A stretch of 64,000 bases of DNA from a virus: positions 47,342 through 111,341 of IMG/VR virus record IMGVR_UViG_3300025928_000005; one strand, given 5' to 3'. A program made the translations under genes and the position numbers. Positions 16,509 through 63,917 of this stretch are shown piece by piece. The notes beneath the pieces are model-generated. The model did no database searches. It was not told where the DNA came from and was given only the letters and a program-made list of their open reading frames with translations. Positions within the stretch are counted from its first letter, which is position 1; every line of letters begins with the position of its first letter.

Positions 16509-16964
16509 TCAGAAGTTACCGTTCGATACCTGAAGGCAGGGGATCCCGACCACGTTTCGCCACAGGTCGACGACCTGGTTGCGGTCGTCGAAAGCGGCGA
16601 TGACGTTGAACCTGGGCTGGATCAGAACGTAGAAGAGGTGCCGCTTCAGGTCGACATCCCTAGCGTAGCGCCACTCGTCGGTGTCGGGTCGCAGGTAGAG
16701 GCTGTGCTTCACGACCTCACGGCTCAGCCGACCGTGCAGGTGGGCCGTGATGAAGTCGGTGGTCGCGTCGTGGCAGACGACGTTGCGGCCGGACGCGAAC
16801 ACGAGCTCGTCGCCGACGTCGAGCAGGGCCCGCGCGACGGCGAGCACGGGCTCGTTGGGGAGGTCCTCGTGGACCCGGTCCCAGTCGTAGGGCCCGCGGC
16901 CGCCCGGGGCCCGCAGGGCCAGGGTGCCGTCGACGTCGAACAGCCAGGCTCGCCTTCTCGCCAC
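16509..16964 (-). CDS. HAD phosphatase like the 3'-phosphatase domain of phage polynucleotide kinase (PseT)
   Basis: FDVDGTLA, ASGR, D..LK, FDDRNQVVDLWR..GIPCLQV..GNF; no kinase P-loop. Confidence 0.85.
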   Translation of the reverse strand: MARRRAWLFDVDGTLALRAPGGRGPYDWDRVHEDLPNEPVLAVARALLDVGDELVFASGRNVVCHDATTDFITAHLHGRLSREVVKHSLYLRPDTDEWRYARDVDLKRHLFYVLIQPRFNVIAAFDDRNQVVDLWRNVVGIPCLQVSNGNF

Positions 16965-17210
16965 GTGTCTGCTCCGTTTCCTAGATACGACGATGGGGCC
17001 GGGTTGACCCGGCCCCACCATCTCTCCGCGCTCACATCCAAGGTGATGAGATTACTGTACCACTGATGTATCGCCTCTACCAGCGACTCGCCCGGCGAAG
17101 CAGCCAGAGCCAGAAGCCGAGGCGGTGCCGTCGCCGGCGTCGTCGGCGCACCTCAGCCACGACCTGGCAGCGCGGGAAGCTGCAGCCACCGGCGCACCAA
17201 ACGGCGCACC

Positions 17211-18917
17211 TCAGCTCTCCCACGGCCAGCGCCCCGCCTGGCCGGCCTCGAGGGTCAACGGCAGCCCGAACATGGCGTCGGTCAGGCCGCCAAGCTCGTG
17301 ACGGTTGCTGCCCGGCGTGACCGGCATCATCGTGTTCTTGTAGCCGGCGAGGTTGAACGCGTAGATCGGCACGTTCCGCGGGGCAGCCGAGTCGACGTCA
17401 CCCACCCCGTAGTTTCCCATCGTCTGACAGTCGGTCAGGATGATGACGCGGCTGTGCTCAGGCCGCAGCGTCTCGCGGACCGCCCTCGCGATCTCGGTGC
17501 CGCCGCCGGCGCTCCCCTGGTATCGCTTGAACGTTTCCACCGCCTTGAGCAGGCTCGTGCCTGGCTCGACACCGGTGACGTGGAACTGCGTGTTCGCGAA
17601 GCCCCACGCGTCGACGCCGGCCGGGTTCCGGATCTTCAGGGCGAGCCCGAAGAGCGCGGCCGCGGTCGAGTAGTCCATCTTGGAGTTTTCGGACAGCTTG
17701 CCCCAGGTCATCGACGCGGAGGTGTCGATGAGCACGAGGGTCCGGCCCGGCAGTACGGGCACGTTCGCCAGGGAGTGGTTCACGGCCTGCTCCAGGGCGT
17801 GGCCCCACCGCAGGGACGGGGCCTCGAGGTAGGCGTTGAGGAACCGGAACGGCAGCTGACGGCTCTTCCGGATCTGCTCCGGGTCGGCGAGCCGCGTCAG
17901 GAGCGGTCCGATCACCGAGTCCGGGACGCCGGCCTGGTCGAGGCCGCGCAGGTTGCGCAGCAGGGCCATGTAGCCGAGCTTGGGCAGCGCGAGCTGCCAG
18001 ATCTCGGCGTCGGTGACGGCGCGGCCCTCGCTCGGCTTCTCGCCGAGCCACGACTTGAGCCACTCCCACTGGCCGACCATCGCCCCGTGGATCAGGTCGA
18101 GGGCGACCTGGTCGTCCGCGAGGGCGCGGCGCGCGAGGTCGTGCCGCTCGCTGGGGGTCAGGCGCGCCATCGCCCACCGGACCCGGACGTGGGTCAGGGA
18201 CTCGGGCGGCTCCGCCCCGTCGCGGCCGTGCCGGGCGGTGATCGCCCACCGGAACAGGTCGTCCTGCCAGGTGCGCTCCGCGCCGGGGGTGCGGACGTCG
18301 GCGTGGGTCAGCTCGAGGACGTCGCCGAACCGCAGGGCCTTGCCCTCACCGTCGTAGCGCAGGAACGCGGCCTCGTCGTAGAGGCGCGTGACGGCGTCGG
18401 CGACGCCGCGCTTGACCGGCTTCGGCAGCTTGACGACGATCGTGCCGTCGGGGCGGGTGACGCCGAACCGGTGCCGCCAGTAGGCGAGGAGCTCGCCCGG
18501 CTCATCGGGGCGCTGCAGCACCGACGTGACCAGCTCGCGGTTGCCGTCACCGTGCAGGCCGGCGGTGAGCCGGGCGTGCACGGCCTCCGCGGCGAGCAGG
18601 ATCGACGCGGTGCGGATGTTGCCCGGGCCGCGCAGCCACGAGAGGAAGACCCGCACCCACGGCCACGTCTCCTCGTTGACGGCGAGCTGGGCCACGAGCT
18701 CCCGCAGGCGCTGCACGTTCTCGTCCGCGGTGTCGTAGAAGCCCCTCTCACCAGCGAACCGCGAGACCGCCCGCCTGAAGAGCTCGGACTGCGCGTCGCT
18801 CTGGAAGCCGGGCGCGCCCTCGTGGGTGAGCCCGTCCGGGGTCGCGCTGAGCGTCCGCAGCGGGCCGCTCGCGGCCGCGCGCCGCGGTTGGGTCGATGCC
18901 TTGTTGAATCCTGCCAC
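17211..18917 (-). CDS. rsr: Ro60/Rsr TROVE-domain RNA-binding protein with vWA domain
   Basis: THEGAPG, LQRPDEPGELLAY, LPKPVKRGVADA, YMALLRNLR, SRQLPFRF, MIDAS DTSASM, GGGT, ILTD; GTG with GAGAGG RBS. Confidence 0.93.
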   Translation of the reverse strand: MAGFNKASTQPRRAAASGPLRTLSATPDGLTHEGAPGFQSDAQSELFRRAVSRFAGERGFYDTADENVQRLRELVAQLAVNEETWPWVRVFLSWLRGPGNIRTASILLAAEAVHARLTAGLHGDGNRELVTSVLQRPDEPGELLAYWRHRFGVTRPDGTIVVKLPKPVKRGVADAVTRLYDEAAFLRYDGEGKALRFGDVLELTHADVRTPGAERTWQDDLFRWAITARHGRDGAEPPESLTHVRVRWAMARLTPSERHDLARRALADDQVALDLIHGAMVGQWEWLKSWLGEKPSEGRAVTDAEIWQLALPKLGYMALLRNLRGLDQAGVPDSVIGPLLTRLADPEQIRKSRQLPFRFLNAYLEAPSLRWGHALEQAVNHSLANVPVLPGRTLVLIDTSASMTWGKLSENSKMDYSTAAALFGLALKIRNPAGVDAWGFANTQFHVTGVEPGTSLLKAVETFKRYQGSAGGGTEIARAVRETLRPEHSRVIILTDCQTMGNYGVGDVDSAAPRNVPIYAFNLAGYKNTMMPVTPGSNRHELGGLTDAMFGLPLTLEAGQAGRWPWES

Positions 18918-18946
18918 GTTCCGGGTTCCTCTCAGCTTGAACGAGA

Positions 18947-18986
18947 ACGAGGCCCCCACCAGCCGTTAAGCTGGTGGGGGCCTCGT
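18947..18986 (-). terminator. 17-bp perfect hairpin between RNA array and rsr
   Basis: ACGAGGCCCCCACCAGC / GCTGGTGGGGGCCTCGT. Confidence 0.6.
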
Positions 18987-19028
18987 GGTGGACGGTCTCA
19001 ACCGCCTGCCTTGTCGGTTGAGACCGAG

Positions 19029-19102
19029 TTGCGGGGACGGGATTTGAACCCGTGACCACTGGGTTATGAGCCCAGCGCGCTACCGAACTGCGCCACCCCG
19101 CT
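19029..19102 (-). tRNA. tRNA-Met(CAU), initiator-like
   Basis: cloverleaf; anticodon arm GGG-CUCAUAA-CCC (3 G-C pairs); 1:72 mismatch; no CCA. Confidence 0.93.
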
Positions 19103-19105
19103 GCA

Positions 19106-19206
19106 CGTGAGCTGGACCGGGACGAGACCTGAGGTGACGGGCGGCGTCTGTTTGCAACCAATTTGCGAAGTAGCCGCTCGTCCGCGCACCGTCCCGGCCG
19201 CTCACG
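19106..19206 (-). ncRNA. Y-RNA-like RNA A (minimal insert)
   Basis: terminal stem, GGUGCG, inner stem, CUACUUC, short hairpin, GGUCUC; scaffold shared with four others; next to Ro60. Confidence 0.7.
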
Positions 19207-19209
19207 AGA

Positions 19210-19290
19210 TCACCACGAGACCTGGGACGACCTGGGGCGACTCTTCAAATTAGCAGTTTGATATAGCCCCTGGTCTTTGCACCGTGGCGA
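19210..19290 (-). ncRNA. Y-RNA-like RNA B (anticodon-stem-loop-like insert)
   Basis: GGUGCA..CUAUAUC..GGUCUC scaffold; insert UCAAA-CUGCUAA-UUUGA. Confidence 0.7.
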
Positions 19291-19310
19291 AGCCTGTGTG
19301 TAGTTGTGGG

Positions 19311-19455
19311 TCGACGCGAGACCAGGTGGCTGGCGGCGTGATCCTCGAAATGCTGCCGATTACACCACGTCCCCGAGGGGACGGCGGGATTCGAACCCGC
19401 ACCTCAACCTAATCAGGGTTGTGTGAAGTAGTCGCTGGCCGTCGCACCGCGTCGA
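19311..19455 (-). ncRNA. yrlA: YrlA-type Y RNA C with permuted tRNA-like domain
   Basis: scaffold plus T arm GCGGG-UUCGAAU-CCCGC, loop-closed acceptor CGUCCCC-UC-GGGGACG, D-like arm. Confidence 0.82.
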
Positions 19456-19462
19456 TGAAGTT

Positions 19463-19548
19463 GTGGGAACCGACTGACCTGGGTTGCCCCGGCCCATAGG
19501 CTATGACCGCCGCGTCTGGTCTCACGCTCGGTTCTAGACGTGAGCCAC
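19463..19548 (-). ncRNA. putative structured RNA with pseudoknot
   Basis: CUCACG/CGUGAG hairpin whose loop GAACCGA complements downstream UCGGUUC; closing GUGG/CCAC. Confidence 0.4.
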
Positions 19549-19555
19549 GTTGCAT

Positions 19556-19686
19556 CACCTCGAGACCTGAGCGTCGGTCGGGGTAGCCGCTTGGCCGCTG
19601 CGGCGAACGACCGGGGTTGAGACCGGTCGATGGGATTCGAACCCATGATTCTTGTGGAAGTACCCGCTCGACTTCGCACCGAGGTG
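19556..19686 (-). ncRNA. yrlA: YrlA-type Y RNA D with permuted tRNA-like domain
   Basis: scaffold plus T arm AUGGG-UUCGAAU-CCCAU, loop-closed acceptor CGACCGG/CCGGUCG, D-like arm. Confidence 0.82.
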
Positions 19687-19693
19687 CCTTGCG

Positions 19694-19768
19694 TGGCTGC
19701 CGATGGACTTGAACCACCGACCCCCGCCTTATCAGGGCGGTGCTCTAACCTGTCTGAGCTAGACAGCC
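19694..19768 (-). tRNA. tRNA-Ile(GAU)
   Basis: GGCUGUC/GGCAGCC acceptor; CCGCC-CUGAUAA-GGCGG; T loop UUCAAGU. Confidence 0.93.
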
Positions 19769-19772
19769 GTAC

Positions 19773-19870
19773 GGTGAGATCCTACCACCGGGAGGGAGTC
19801 GAACCCGCTAGGTTGGTCGCGACACCAACCCGTCGTCCGGACGCGGAGTTGAACCGAGCCGGATCTCACC
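19773..19870 (-). ncRNA. unknown RNA with two T-loop hairpins
   Basis: 10-bp closing stem GGUGAGAUCC/GGAUCUCACC; CGG-UUCAACU-CCG and GGG-UUCGACU-CCC; central GGUUGGU/ACCAACC hairpin. Confidence 0.6.
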
Positions 19871-19894
19871 TGAGCGACCTCGCGTAGTCGCCTG

Positions 19895-19966
19895 CGCCGG
19901 AGACGGGGATCGAACCCGCGACCTCTCCCTCGACAGGGGAGCGCTCTTCCATTGAGCTACTCTGGC
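19895..19966 (-). tRNA. tRNA-Asp(GUC)
   Basis: CUCCC-CUGUCGA-GGGAG; G73; A4:C69 mismatch. Confidence 0.88.
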
Positions 19967-19968
19967 TT

Positions 19969-20043
19969 ACGTGGTCCTCTGGCCGCTGAGGTACACCCCC
20001 TCGAAGTGGAGGTGAGGGGACTCGAACCCCCGACTTCCCACCG
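19969..20043 (-). ncRNA. free-standing circularly permuted tRNA-like element without anticodon loop
   Basis: order T arm, acceptor 3' strand CACCUCC, 7-nt linker, GGGGGUG, UA, D arm CCUC/GAGG. Confidence 0.7.
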
Positions 20044-20117
20044 TGACTGCCGCTGGACTCGAACCAGCTACCTTCCGAGTTTCAACCGGACGCTCTCCCA
20101 GCTTGAGCTAGGCAGCC
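20044..20117 (-). tRNA. tRNA-Phe(GAA)
   Basis: GGCUGCC/GGCAGUC acceptor; UCCGG-UUGAAAC-UCGGA. Confidence 0.88.
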
Positions 20118-20238
20118 AAGCACACGGTGAACCATCGCCGATCCATCAGCATCGAACGCGATGTTCGATGCTTTTACCACGGACCAGGGACTCGAGTACT
20201 GCCCGTGGTGGGCTGACACCCGTGCGTGCCTTCCCTTG

Positions 20239-20310
20239 TACCCCACGCCGGGATCGAACCGGCGCCTTCCGCTTGAGGGGCGGAGGTGACTACCACTACA
20301 CCAGTGGGGC
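20239..20310 (-). tRNA. tRNA-Glu(CUC), atypical C33
   Basis: GCCCCAC/GUGGGGU acceptor; UCCGC-CCCUCAA-GCGGA; T loop UUCGAUC. Confidence 0.8.
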
Positions 20311-20312
20311 GT

Positions 20313-20473
20313 GAAACCTCACCGAGACCATTGAGCCTGCCCTCGGTTTTCTTTCTGACTCTTGCTCTGCCAAGTTGAGCTACCCCACGACCGAGGTCGA
20401 GGGGACGGGACTTGAACCCGCAACCCAGAGTTCCGCTTGAAGTATCCGAGTGCGTTCGCACCGGTGAGGCTTC
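20313..20473 (-). ncRNA. yrlA: YrlA-type Y RNA E with permuted tRNA-like domain
   Basis: scaffold plus ACUCU/AGAGU stem, T arm GCGGG-UUCAAGU-CCCGU, loop-closed acceptor, D arm UAGCUCAACUUGGCAGAGC. Confidence 0.85.
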
Positions 20474-20539: not shown

Positions 20540-20569
20540 ACCGTATCAGACAGCAACGAGCGTTGTCCA
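20540..20569 (-). promoter_or_regulatory. putative promoter of RNA array/rsr operon (TGGACA-N18-TACGGT)
   Basis: sigma-A-like hexamers upstream of first Y RNA. Confidence 0.45.
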
Positions 20570-20593
20570 GGGTAAATCTCAACAACTTTGCTG

Positions 20594-20622
20594 TTTACAT
20601 TCACCGCCCGTGCTGGTAGGGT
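20594..20622 (+). promoter_or_regulatory. phage promoter TTTACA-N17-TAGGGT
   Basis: repeated motif followed by CAGGAACGAG leader. Confidence 0.65.
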
Positions 20623-62578: not shown

Positions 62579-63917
62579 CTACTTCTCCTCGAGCCGCAGC
62601 TGGTACGGGTACGACTTCCGGCACAGCTGGCAGGTCACCTTGGCCGGGTCGTCGGTCAGGTAGGCGGCCGACGCCTGCCGCCCGCGGGCCGCGATCTTCA
62701 GGTCGCTGCCGCACGCGGGGCCCGTGAAGGTGGTGCCGACCCCGGTCCGCAGGTGGACCTTGTGCGGGCGGCGCGGCTTCCCGGGCGTGAGGCCCCACCT
62801 CGGGTCGTTGAACCCTGAGGGGCTCACCGCGCACTCACCTCGCGGTGCAGGAGCCGCAGCGCCTCGTCGTACGTCGTCAGGCCGAAGCTCGCGGGGTCTG
62901 GGATGGGCCGCCCGTCGACGGTAAAGACGTCGAAGTGCGACTCACTGTCGAGGGTGCCGCGGTTCGAGCTCGCGAGCCGGCCCACGGGAACGCCGTCCCG
63001 AGACACCTCCCACCACCACGTGCCCCGCGTCCGCGCCTCGACCCGCTCGCAGCTCCAGCGATGCTCCTCGAACTCGCTCACCGCTCACCCGCCGCCCTCA
63101 GCCCGTCGATCACGCGCAGCATCCCGTCTGCCTGCCTGACCGTCAGGTCCGCCGCCGTGGCCAGGGCGCTCTTGGCGCCCCACTTGTCCGTCGCGGCGAG
63201 CTGCACCGCCAGGGCCTCGGTTCGAACCATGTGCGCCCGCAGGCGCAGCTGGTCCAGGGATTGGTCGCCGTGTCTTCCCACGTCGGTTCCTCGCTCTCGT
63301 TGTCGTCGTTCTCGGTGCCGGCGCTCACGATCGAGCGTCGGTGATCTCCTCGAGCTGGGTCGCGGCCTCGAGCTCTCGCACCGACCAGCGGCTCGGCTCG
63401 AGGTGCCCCGTGACCCGGGAGTGGTACGTGAACCCGTACGGCAGCGCGTACCACCGCCCCGACCAGTTGTGGCCGCGCTCCCTGAAGACGCGGGCCCCGG
63501 CGACCTGCTCGGCGTGGGGCCGGGCCGTCAGCTCGGCCCACAGCTCCTCGAGCCGCGCGAGGTCGCTCGCTCCCTTCAGCGTCAGGCTGTTGATGAAGCT
63601 GATCGCCCGTCGGAGCGAGTCGACGCTCATCCTCCGGACGTCGCCCGTGTACGTGCCCACCATCAGATGACCTCTACCAGGTTGTCGGGGCTGAGCAGGA
63701 CCCCGCGGCCCCGCACGACCTTCCACACCACGTCCACCGCTCGCCGCCGCACCTCGAGGGCGGTGCCCTCGTGCGGGGCCGGCCAGCGGTCGCTCTCGTG
63801 GCCTACGGTGAGCCGGCACCGCACCGTCTCGCCGCGGGTCGCGCGGCCCAGCAGGGAGCGCGTCGTGACGGCGATCTCCGCGGGACAGCGCTCGCGGCCG
63901 AGCCGCAGGCGGTTCAC
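62579..63917 (-). other. five small ORFs (62579-62827, 62824-63081, 63078-63281, 63325-63663, 63663-63917)
   Basis: overlapping start/stop codons. Confidence 0.55.

What the first reader, a model, noticed from the sequence alone, without database searches (positions are those of the whole stretch)
19969..20043. Free-standing circularly permuted tRNA with no anticodon
Seen (minus strand): GUGG, GAAGUC, GGGGG-UUCGAGU-CCCCU, CACCUCC, ACUUCGA, GGGGGUG, UA, CCUC-AGCGGCCA-GAGG, A, CCAC. The 3' half precedes the 5' half, the acceptor stem is loop-closed and the anticodon stem is open. It fills the gap between tRNA-Phe and tRNA-Asp, so their processing would release it. It lacks the Y-RNA scaffold. 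Inference: it mimics an anticodon-cleaved tRNA or a tRNA elbow, or is a precursor or remnant of a YrlA domain.
Basis: partly seen in the sequence, partly recalled or inferred. Interest (0 to 1): 0.78.

Follow-up and report, generated by a model that had tools for sequence, protein, structure and literature searches.

The report
Handle-less tRNA mimic in phage array
A soil phage carries, wedged between two of its tRNA genes, a conserved 71-base RNA gene shaped like a tRNA whose acceptor end is sealed and whose anticodon arm is missing. It is the tRNA-like half of a bacterial Y RNA without the part that binds the Ro60 protein, so it offers a way to study what that tRNA-like half does on its own.

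Summary
Window 20041-19971 (minus strand) reads: 4-bp open stem, variable loop, T arm, 7-bp loop-closed acceptor stem, U8A9, D arm, A26. It lies 2 nt after tRNA-Phe and 4 nt before tRNA-Asp.

The window is part of a 111-kb phage. The element sits in a minus-strand array of 5 tRNAs and 5 Y-RNA-like genes, about 1 kb upstream of a Ro60/Rsr gene.

A covariance model built only from Y-embedded tRNA-like domains scores it 55 bits (E 3e-16). It lacks the scaffold motifs that about 35 of 40 such domains carry; the few others lie inside long terminal stems.

Three related contigs keep it at 91-97% identity, like the true tRNAs and above rsr DNA (~80%). It always precedes tRNA-Asp.

Its acceptor hairpin has the bacterial alanine identity set and nearly matches that of a permuted phage tmRNA.

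Best reading: a Ro-handle-less YrlA-type tRNA mimic, released by tRNA processing. It is probably opened by RNase P and CCA-tailed, as shown for Mycobacterium smegmatis YrlA. Processing, charging and function are inferred.

I found no paper describing such an element. Unverified notes from this scan report similar handle-less mimics in other phages.

The parts
19971..20041 (-). Free-standing permuted tRNA-like domain (core, 71 nt)
   Evidence: Read; fold; Rfam YrlA 24-84 at 25.5 bits; leave-out model R2 at 55.3 bits, E 2.6e-16; homologues at L006:2943-3012, L022:3200-3269 and L033:2098-2167.
20038..20041 (-). Open 'anticodon-stem' strand GUGG (positions 40-43). It pairs with CCAC at 19971-19974. 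The conserved flanking C20043 and G19970 could add a fifth pair across a bulged G.
   Evidence: The U-A pair becomes C-G in L006, a compensatory change.
20015..20037 (-). Variable loop GAAGUC plus T arm GGGGG-UUCGAGU-CCCCU
   Evidence: The T loop has U54, U55, C56, A58 and the G53-C61 pair. This stretch is identical in all three variants.
19994..20014 (-). Acceptor hairpin: CACCUCC (66-72), loop A73-C74-U-U-C-G-A, GGGGGUG (1-7). It carries G1-C72, G2-C71, G3.U70 and G4-C69.
   Evidence: The bacterial alanine identity set is given in PMC9976931. The hairpin nearly matches that of the permuted tmRNA of Synechococcus phage S-CAM1 and those of the permuted-tmRNA-type sequences on viral contigs L008-L021.
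19975..19993 (-). U8 A9, D arm CCUC-AGCGGCCA-GAGG (A14, G15, G18, G19, A21), A26
   Evidence: The D stem has C10-G25, whereas almost all Y-embedded domains have G10-C25.
20044..20117 (-). tRNA-Phe(GAA). Its discriminator lies 2 nt (CG) upstream of the element.
19895..19966 (-). tRNA-Asp(GUC), 4 nt (GUAA) downstream. It is the constant 3' neighbour of the element in all four contigs.
20318..20468 (-). Context: Y1, a full YrlA-like RNA with a tRNA-like domain inside the GGUGCGAA / UACUUC / GGUCUC scaffold
   Evidence: Rfam YrlA positions 1-114 at 37.8 bits; fold; motif positions.
19106..19686 (-). Context: four more Y-RNA-like units with the same scaffold (Y2 19556-19686, Y3 19311-19455, Y4 19210-19290, Y5 19106-19206)
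   Evidence: Each closes by a terminal stem. The motifs were read.
17211..18917 (-). Context: Ro60/Rsr orthologue (TROVE domain). The likely start is the GTG at 18917, about 1.05 kb downstream of the element on the same strand.

Best explanation
The element is a real small-RNA gene. It is a YrlA-class, circularly permuted tRNA-like domain that has lost, or never had, the Ro60-binding handle, and it sits as a tRNA-sized cassette in the phage's tRNA/Y-RNA array upstream of rsr. Shown here: the fold, membership of the tRNA-like-domain family, absence of the scaffold, tRNA-grade conservation, and the genomic context. Inferred: (1) It is transcribed with the array and released as a roughly 75-nt RNA. 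RNase P cutting at the 5' end of tRNA-Asp and 3' maturation of the upstream tRNA would free it. (2) Its 7-bp acceptor hairpin, with the loop A73-C74-N..., is opened by RNase P 5' of G1. The trailer is trimmed and CCA is completed, as demonstrated for M. smegmatis YrlA and as permuted tmRNAs with almost the same hairpin must undergo. The product would be a two-piece tRNA 'top half plus elbow' with no anticodon. (3) Because it carries A73, G2-C71, G3.U70 and G4-C69, that product could be recognised by AlaRS. (4) It acts free of Rsr, as a mimic or decoy for one or more proteins that read the acceptor, T-arm and elbow of tRNA. The partner is unknown.
For: Fold and coordinates. Family membership without circularity: R2 gives 55.3 bits; Rfam YrlA matches positions 24-84 only. 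No handle: about 35 of roughly 40 strong tRNA-like-domain hits in 20 Rsr loci have at least one of GGUGCR (about -30), UAYWUC (-8 to -21) and GGUCUC (about +20). The free element has none and abuts tRNAs at 1-4 nt. The few other motif-less hits lie inside long terminal stems. Selection: identity is 91.5-97.2% between genomes whose rsr DNA is about 80% identical. That equals the true tRNAs (85-99%) and exceeds the Y-embedded domains (77-88%). The binomial probability of so few changes is 3e-5 and 6e-3. The only stem changes are U-A to C-G and C-G to U.G. Cassette behaviour: there is an exact indel of tRNA-Trp + CG + element + GUUU between L022 and L003. Processing: it has a 7-bp acceptor stem. 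All five tRNAs of the array, like the element, encode N73-C74 followed by a non-C base. The family loop consensus is N73-C-U-C-R-U, and one relative encodes ACCA. M. smegmatis YrlA is cut by RNase P in vitro, is found in vivo as the two halves expected from that cut, and gains CA (PMC4201824). A bona fide permuted tmRNA has the hairpin CACCUCC-ACUCAU-GGGGGUG. Alanine set: PMC9976931. G.U is enriched at pair 3:70 in the family, 9 of 37 against 0-3 at other positions.
Against: There are no expression data, so transcription, release, RNase P nicking, CCA addition and charging are all inferred. Only three distinct sequences exist, so covariation within the element is not statistically informative (174 of 500 shuffles do as well). 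The folding-energy z-score is unremarkable. In the window and L022 the nucleotide before G1 is A. From memory, bacterial RNase P prefers U there, and U is what most relatives have. L022 has G2.U71, which weakens the alanine set, and position 20 is C rather than G. The phage encodes no CCA-adding enzyme, RtcB or Rnl-type ligase, so every step would depend on the host. Closely related phages (L003, L004) do without the element.
Confidence: 0.55

Rival explanations
1. It is an inert remnant: a decayed Y RNA that lost its handle, or the leftover of two tandem copies of one tRNA gene with the outer halves deleted. Under this reading it is transcribed only as spacer.
For: It lacks the Ro handle. Sister phages L003 and L004 lack it. 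These arrays rearrange often.
Against: Conservation is at tRNA level, far above rsr DNA, and changes are confined to loops or preserve pairing. All nucleotides needed for tRNA tertiary contacts are intact. No tRNA in any locus resembles it, and no relative has two tRNAs at the site.
Confidence: 0.08
2. It is still a partner of Rsr. It might act inside an unprocessed tRNA-Phe / element / tRNA-Asp precursor, or be bound by Rsr or a Y RNP through its tRNA-like surface or its short 3' tail.
For: It lies about 1 kb upstream of rsr on the same strand, among five Y RNAs. In D. radiodurans some T-arm-bearing RNAs bind Rsr weakly (PMC4201824).
Against: It has no CGAA-type motif and no terminal helix. 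Complete tRNAs abut it, so processing should cut it free with only 2-4 nt tails.
Confidence: 0.12
3. It is a stripped-down tmRNA tRNA-like domain. Once opened, CCA-tailed and alanylated, it would engage EF-Tu, SmpB or stalled ribosomes, or compete with host tmRNA, without supplying a tag.
For: The T arm and acceptor hairpin nearly match those of permuted phage tmRNAs. Rfam tmRNA_permuted scores 26.6 bits and cyano_tmRNA E is 7e-5. The alanine identity set is present.
Against: It has a canonical 4-bp D arm with G18 and G19, not the tmRNA D-loop analogue GGNUUCGAC. Models built from Y-embedded domains score it far higher (55 bits). The same loop consensus occurs in Y-embedded domains. It has no mRNA-like part, and ARAGORN finds no tmRNA.
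Confidence: 0.12
4. It is a cis-acting leader of tRNA-Asp: a structured 5' leader that guides or protects maturation of the tRNA that always follows it.
For: In all four contigs it directly precedes tRNA-Asp, while the upstream tRNA varies among Phe, Ile and Trp.
Against: L003 and L004 have the same tRNA-Asp directly after Y1, without the element. A leader would not need intact D/T-loop tertiary nucleotides or an alanine-type acceptor.
Confidence: 0.08

Closest known systems
YrlA (Y RNA-like A; Rfam RF02553; Chen et al. 2014, PMC4201824)
   Same: It has the same permuted tRNA-like module: variable loop, T arm, loop-closed acceptor stem, U8-N9 and D arm. It is encoded within 4 kb upstream of rsr on the same strand, and YrlA RNAs are also known from phages.
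   Different: It has no 5'/3' terminal helix and no CGAA-type Ro-binding motif; a 4-bp stem simply ends. It is flanked by tRNAs instead. It scores 25.5 bits against the gathering score of 69, and only over model positions 24-84.
M. smegmatis YrlA (experimentally characterised; PMC4201824)
   Same: It is actinobacterial-type, has a 7-bp acceptor stem, and encodes C after the discriminator. That RNA is cut by RNase P in vitro, is found in vivo as the two halves expected from the cut, and receives CA to complete CCA.
   Different: The M. smegmatis halves stay on Rsr through the Y stem. Here nothing would tether the RNA to Rsr. I could not retrieve the M. smegmatis sequence for a base-by-base comparison.
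Two-piece (circularly permuted) tmRNA, e.g. Synechococcus phage S-CAM1 (L042; ARAGORN tmRNA*)
   Same: The gene order is T arm, acceptor 3' strand, short loop, acceptor 5' strand. The acceptor is CACCUCC/GGGGGUG with G3.U70 and A73, and the loop is ACUCAU-like without a full CCA.
   Different: It has no pseudoknots and no tag reading frame, has a canonical D arm, and is 71 nt in all.
Permuted tRNA genes of red and green algae and Thermofilum (named from memory: Soma et al. 2007; Chan et al. 2011)
   Same: The 3' half precedes the 5' half, and the two are joined across the acceptor ends.
   Different: Those genes keep the anticodon loop and mature through a bulge-helix-bulge endonuclease and a circular intermediate. 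Here the anticodon loop is absent. Circularising the predicted ends would give a 6-7-nt loop (GUAACG, GGCAACG or GUUUCG) without U33 on a 4-bp stem.

Membership tests
YrlA / bacterial Y RNA (RF02553) | tRNA-like module: T arm, loop-closed acceptor stem and D arm, in permuted order | tested here: met
   (R2 55.3 bits).
YrlA / bacterial Y RNA (RF02553) | Helix formed by the 5' and 3' ends that carries the conserved Ro-binding motif (GNCGAAN0-1G / CGAA) | tested here: not met
   There is only a 4-bp GUGG/CCAC stem. None of the GGUGCGAA, UAYWUC or GGUCUC motifs is present, and tRNAs lie 2 and 4 nt away.
YrlA / bacterial Y RNA (RF02553) | Encoded within 4 kb of the Ro60 orthologue, on the same strand | tested here: met
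   The TROVE ORF is at 18917-17211 on the minus strand, about 1.05 kb downstream.
YrlA / bacterial Y RNA (RF02553) | Reaches the Rfam gathering score | tested here: not met
   25.5 bits against 69. The full Y1 of this phage also falls short, at 37.8 bits.
YrlA / bacterial Y RNA (RF02553) | Bound by Rsr in vivo | not testable with these tools
   Needs immunoprecipitation.
tRNA (RF00005) | Standard 5'-to-3' order with an anticodon arm | tested here: not met
   Neither ARAGORN nor Rfam calls a tRNA here. There is no anticodon loop.
tRNA (RF00005) | Cloverleaf arms and the nucleotides needed for tertiary contacts | tested here: met
   The re-permuted halves are called a cloverleaf. U8, A14, G15/C48, G18, G19, A21, U54, U55, C56, A58 and G53-C61 are all present.
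Permuted tmRNA (RF04321) | T arm plus alanine-type acceptor strands joined by a short intervening loop | tested here: met
Permuted tmRNA (RF04321) | mRNA-like domain with a tag reading frame and pseudoknots, and a tmRNA-type D-loop analogue | tested here: not met
   The element is 71 nt between two tRNAs, ARAGORN finds no tmRNA in the genome, and the D arm is canonical.
Alanine-accepting RNAs (AlaRS substrates) | A73, G2-C71, G3.U70, G4-C69 (bacterial set; PMC9976931) | tested here: met
   L022 has G2.U71 instead, and the minor element G20 is absent.
Alanine-accepting RNAs (AlaRS substrates) | A free 3'-CCA end and actual charging | not testable with these tools
   The acceptor is loop-closed in the gene. 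Opening of the loop and CCA addition are inferred from PMC4201824.

The most novel reading that the evidence does not exclude
The phage makes a two-piece, anticodon-less, alanine-chargeable tRNA. [quoted passage not shown] The Ala-RNA would then act outside normal decoding. It might compete with tmRNA/SmpB or EF-Tu, donate alanine to a non-ribosomal acceptor, or soak up a host toxin that attacks tRNA acceptor ends. This would show that the tRNA-like half of Y RNAs has a function independent of Ro60.
Probability: 0.15. Interest if true: 0.85.

Novelty: new variant of a known kind. Interest (0 to 1): 0.6.

Why it matters
What the tRNA-like domain of bacterial Y RNAs is for has been open since 2014 (PMC4201824 discusses nuclease protection against unknown tRNA-binding partners). 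Here the domain occurs naturally detached from the Ro60 handle, is kept under tRNA-grade selection, and sits next to five handle-bearing paralogues in the same operon. That argues the domain has an activity of its own. It also gives a clean reagent: a 71-nt RNA for pull-downs and for RNase P, CCA-addition and AlaRS assays, and a one-cassette deletion in a phage. The recurrence of an alanine-type acceptor (G3.U70, A73) and of a conserved N73-C-U-C-R-U loop across the family revives the idea that some Y-RNA tRNA mimics are aminoacylated. Chen et al. raised this only as a possibility.

Tried and rejected
(1) Fusion or junction of two normal tRNAs. Rejected: both neighbours are complete, the element's acceptor strands pair 7 of 7, no tRNA in 40 loci is close to it, and true tandem-tRNA junctions score 41 bits or less and overlap two tRNAs.
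(2) Circularisation to recreate an anticodon loop. The predicted ends would give 6-7-nt loops without U33 on a 4-bp stem, and the phage has no RtcB or Rnl ligase. Not supported.
(3) Degenerate tmRNA. There is no room for a tag, the D arm is canonical, and ARAGORN finds no tmRNA.
(4) Hidden long-range Y stem spanning the neighbours. The spacers S1 and S2 fold closed on their own, and no scaffold motifs are present.
(5) Search for the element in 185,579 bacterial and archaeal genomes by a 23-base pattern: 0 hits. An 18-mer scan of viral contigs returned only the L006 contig plus one chance match, L041. blastn against cultured phages returned only the tmRNA hairpin of S-CAM1.
(6) Retrieval of the M. 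smegmatis YrlA sequence through a published primer: 0 hits. The supplements of PMC4201824 are not held.
(7) Sigma-70 promoter scan of the array: nothing found. A conserved AT-richer stretch near 20560-20610 was not analysed further.
(8) Covariation within the element alone: too few sequences.
(9) The family-wide pair counts are partly circular, because my descriptor scan selected for pairing. I do not rely on them.

Full report
OBSERVATION. On the minus strand, window 20043-19967 reads CG-GUGG-GAAGUC-GGGGG/UUCGAGU/CCCCU-CACCUCC-ACUUCGA-GGGGGUG-UA-CCUC/AGCGGCCA/GAGG-A-CCAC-GUAA. RNAfold returns this four-helix structure as the minimum-energy fold. The energy z-score of 0.24 is uninformative. 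ARAGORN and Rfam place complete tRNA-Phe (20117-20044) and tRNA-Asp (19966-19895) on either side. The element therefore borrows no arm from a neighbour. Only 2 nt and 4 nt separate it from them.

CONTEXT. The window is the right-hand 64 kb of a 111,341-bp IMG/VR virus record with about 69% G+C. It carries a terminase and a lysin-type gene. On the minus strand the order is as follows:
- Y1, a full-length but sub-threshold YrlA hit at 37.8 bits
- tRNA-Glu
- a structured spacer, S1
- tRNA-Phe
- the element
- tRNA-Asp
- a double-T-loop spacer, S2
- tRNA-Ile
- four more Y-RNA-like units, Y2-Y5
- tRNA-Met
- a strong hairpin
- a 570-580-aa TROVE (Ro60/Rsr) gene
- a stand-alone PNKP-type HAD phosphatase
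.
The five Y units share one scaffold: a terminal stem, GGUGCGAA, an inner stem, UAYWUC, an insert, and GGUCUC returning to the terminal stem. The Rsr protein is 35-39% identical to the 'Ro-like RNA binding proteins' of Gordonia, Streptomyces and Arthrobacter phages, which also sit in tRNA arrays. This is therefore an actinophage-type Ro60/Y-RNA/tRNA locus.

FAMILY MEMBERSHIP. Rfam matches the element to YrlA model positions 24-84 only, that is, to the tRNA-like domain (25.5 bits). It also matches the T-arm and acceptor part of permuted tmRNA (26.6 bits). I collected permuted tRNA-like domains from Rsr loci in viral and metagenome contigs. I then built a covariance model from 18 Y-embedded domains, leaving the free elements out (R2). 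R2 scores the element 55.3 bits, E 2.6e-16. It is the second-best hit in the window, and every hit in the whole phage genome lies in this array. As a control, junctions between tightly packed tRNAs can reach about 41 bits, as Chen et al. warned. Those junctions overlap two tRNAs, and this element overlaps none. Rejoining its two halves around a dummy anticodon loop gives a cloverleaf that ARAGORN accepts.

NO HANDLE. I examined about 40 strong domain hits in 20 Rsr loci. About 35 have at least one of GGUGCR near -30, UAYWUC at -8 to -21 and GGUCUC near +20. The copies in the window, L006 and L022 (identical to L033) have none of these and abut tRNAs at 1-4 nt. The few other motif-less hits, in L028, L031 and L037, lie inside long terminal stems. 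Within my sample, the free-standing arrangement is confined to this clade.

CONSERVATION. Homologues lie between tRNA-Ile and tRNA-Asp in L006, and between tRNA-Trp and tRNA-Asp in L022 and L033. Identity is 91.5-97.2%. The true tRNAs show 85-99%, the Y-embedded domains 77-88%, and rsr DNA about 80%. At the rsr rate, so few changes have binomial probabilities of 3e-5 and 6e-3. The changes observed are:
- U-A to C-G in the open stem, which is compensatory
- C71 to U, giving G.U
- three loop substitutions
- a 1-nt D-loop indel
. With three distinct sequences, this covariation is not statistically meaningful on its own. L022 differs from L003 by a precise indel of tRNA-Trp + CG + element + GUUU, so the element behaves as a tRNA-sized cassette. 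It is dispensable in some relatives. No tRNA in any locus is close to it.

THE ACCEPTOR HAIRPIN. The stem is G1-C72, G2-C71, G3.U70, G4-C69, G5-C68, U6-A67, G7-C66, followed by A73 and C74. A73, G2-C71, G3.U70 and G4-C69 form the bacterial alanine identity set (PMC9976931). A pattern taken from the T arm and acceptor retrieved 14 further viral-contig loci (L008-L021), besides the element's own homologue on the L006 contig. All 14 have a permuted-tmRNA-type hairpin. blastn retrieved the ARAGORN-confirmed permuted tmRNA of Synechococcus phage S-CAM1. Its hairpin, CACCUCC-ACUCAU-GGGGGUG, differs from the L006 copy by one loop nucleotide. Across the family, G.U is concentrated at pair 3:70 (9 of 37 distinct domains, against 0-3 at other positions). 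The loop consensus is N73-C-U-C-R-U, and one relative encodes ACCA. All five tRNAs of the array likewise encode N73-C74 followed by a non-C base. This points to one shared route of 3' maturation.

MECHANISM. The following steps are inferred.
1. tRNA processing of the neighbours releases an RNA of about 75 nt.
2. RNase P opens the 7-bp acceptor hairpin at G1.
3. The trailer is trimmed and CCA is completed.
The precedent for steps 2 and 3 is M. smegmatis YrlA. It is cut by RNase P RNA in vitro at the predicted site, it occurs in vivo as the two halves expected from that cut, and it gains CA. Chen et al. attribute the cleavage to its 7-bp acceptor stem (PMC4201824).
The product would be a two-piece tRNA top half plus elbow with alanine identity and no anticodon, untethered from Rsr. 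I rate the identity of the element (a real, selected, handle-less YrlA-type domain) at about 0.9, the processing at about 0.5, and charging at about 0.2. The partner is unknown.

RIVALS. The alternatives are an inert remnant, an unconventional Rsr partner, a tmRNA-domain decoy, and a leader for tRNA-Asp. They are weighed in the Rival explanations section.

KNOWN OR NEW. Every described YrlA has the Ro-binding helix (PMC4201824; PMC12135203). Five literature searches found no free-standing version. Unverified notes from this scan report handle-less permuted tRNA mimics in other phages, so the phenomenon may be broader. I class the element as a new variant of a known kind.

LIMITS. There are no expression data, only three sequence variants, and the host is unknown. 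The M. smegmatis sequence could not be retrieved.

Noticed in passing
window 19106-19686 and 20318-20468 (-): Five Y-RNA-like units share one scaffold (terminal stem, GGUGCGAA, UAYWUC, insert, GGUCUC) but carry different inserts. Y1-Y3 hold tRNA-like domains and Y4-Y5 hold small hairpins. The same scaffold recurs in distant Rsr loci (L025, L027, L031, L034-L036).
   Followed up: partly
window 19311-19455 (-), Y3: The Y3 insert has an anticodon-arm-like hairpin, AACC-CUGAUUA-GGUU (GAU), ahead of the variable loop, T arm, sealed acceptor and D arm. It is thus a complete permuted tRNA inside a Y scaffold. Rfam gives a weak tRNA hit here (23.7 bits). ARAGORN calls the equivalent elements in L026, L027, L036, L037 and L040 as tRNAs, which are probably mis-annotations.
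   Followed up: partly
window 19769-19894 (-), S2: A 10-bp stem (GGUGAGAUCC/GGAUCUCACC) encloses two T-arm-like hairpins (UUCAACU and UUCGACU), the second followed by a conserved CCYGGUGGUA. It has no D arm and no acceptor. Counterparts exist in L003 (2862-3006) and L006 (3091-3238).
   Followed up: partly
window 20118-20238 (-), S1: A 121-nt spacer between tRNA-Glu and tRNA-Phe folds into a closed four-way junction (z = -3.2; 0 of 200 shuffles fold as well). It matches no Rfam family. Similar sequence is present in L003 and L006.
   Followed up: no
A4 alignment; L027:3466-3536, L039:3816-3886 (Streptomyces phage BRock), L026:3871-3941, L040:3823-3893 (phage GiJojo): A subset of Y-embedded tRNA-like domains in distant phages also has G1-C72, G2-C71, G3.U70 and A73-C74. 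G.U is enriched at 3:70 across the family. L028:4962-5034 encodes ACCA in its acceptor loop.
   Followed up: partly
window 19029-20310 (-): All five tRNAs encode N73-C74 and then a non-C base, so none has a full CCA. tRNA-Glu(CUC) has C33 in place of the near-universal U33 (loop CCCUCAA).
   Followed up: partly
window 16509-17021 (-): A 170-aa ORF just downstream of rsr matches only the HAD phosphatase domain of polynucleotide kinase-phosphatase (PF25109, 2e-36). I found no kinase domain, RtcB or Rnl-type ligase in the phage.
   Followed up: partly
L042 335-649 (NC_020837.1, about 108.6-109.0 kb; Synechococcus phage S-CAM1): ARAGORN calls a circularly permuted tmRNA (tag ANTSDSAANNIVAFSRSTVAA*). 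The RefSeq record has no feature there, and sister records annotate a hypothetical protein.
   Followed up: partly
L008-L021 (14 loci on IMG/VR contigs): These loci carry permuted-tmRNA-like sequences with very short intervening loops (2-8 nt between CCA and G1). They were found with the acceptor and T-arm pattern.
   Followed up: no
window 18945-18990 (-) and 18917: A strong GC hairpin followed by UUCUCGUU lies between tRNA-Met and rsr and may act as a terminator or attenuator. The rsr start is more likely the GTG at 18917 (MAGFNK...) than the ORF-list start at 18959.
   Followed up: partly
window 62891-62983 (+): ARAGORN calls a 93-nt 'tRNA-Phe(aaa)' that Rfam does not support. It is probably a false positive.
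   Followed up: no
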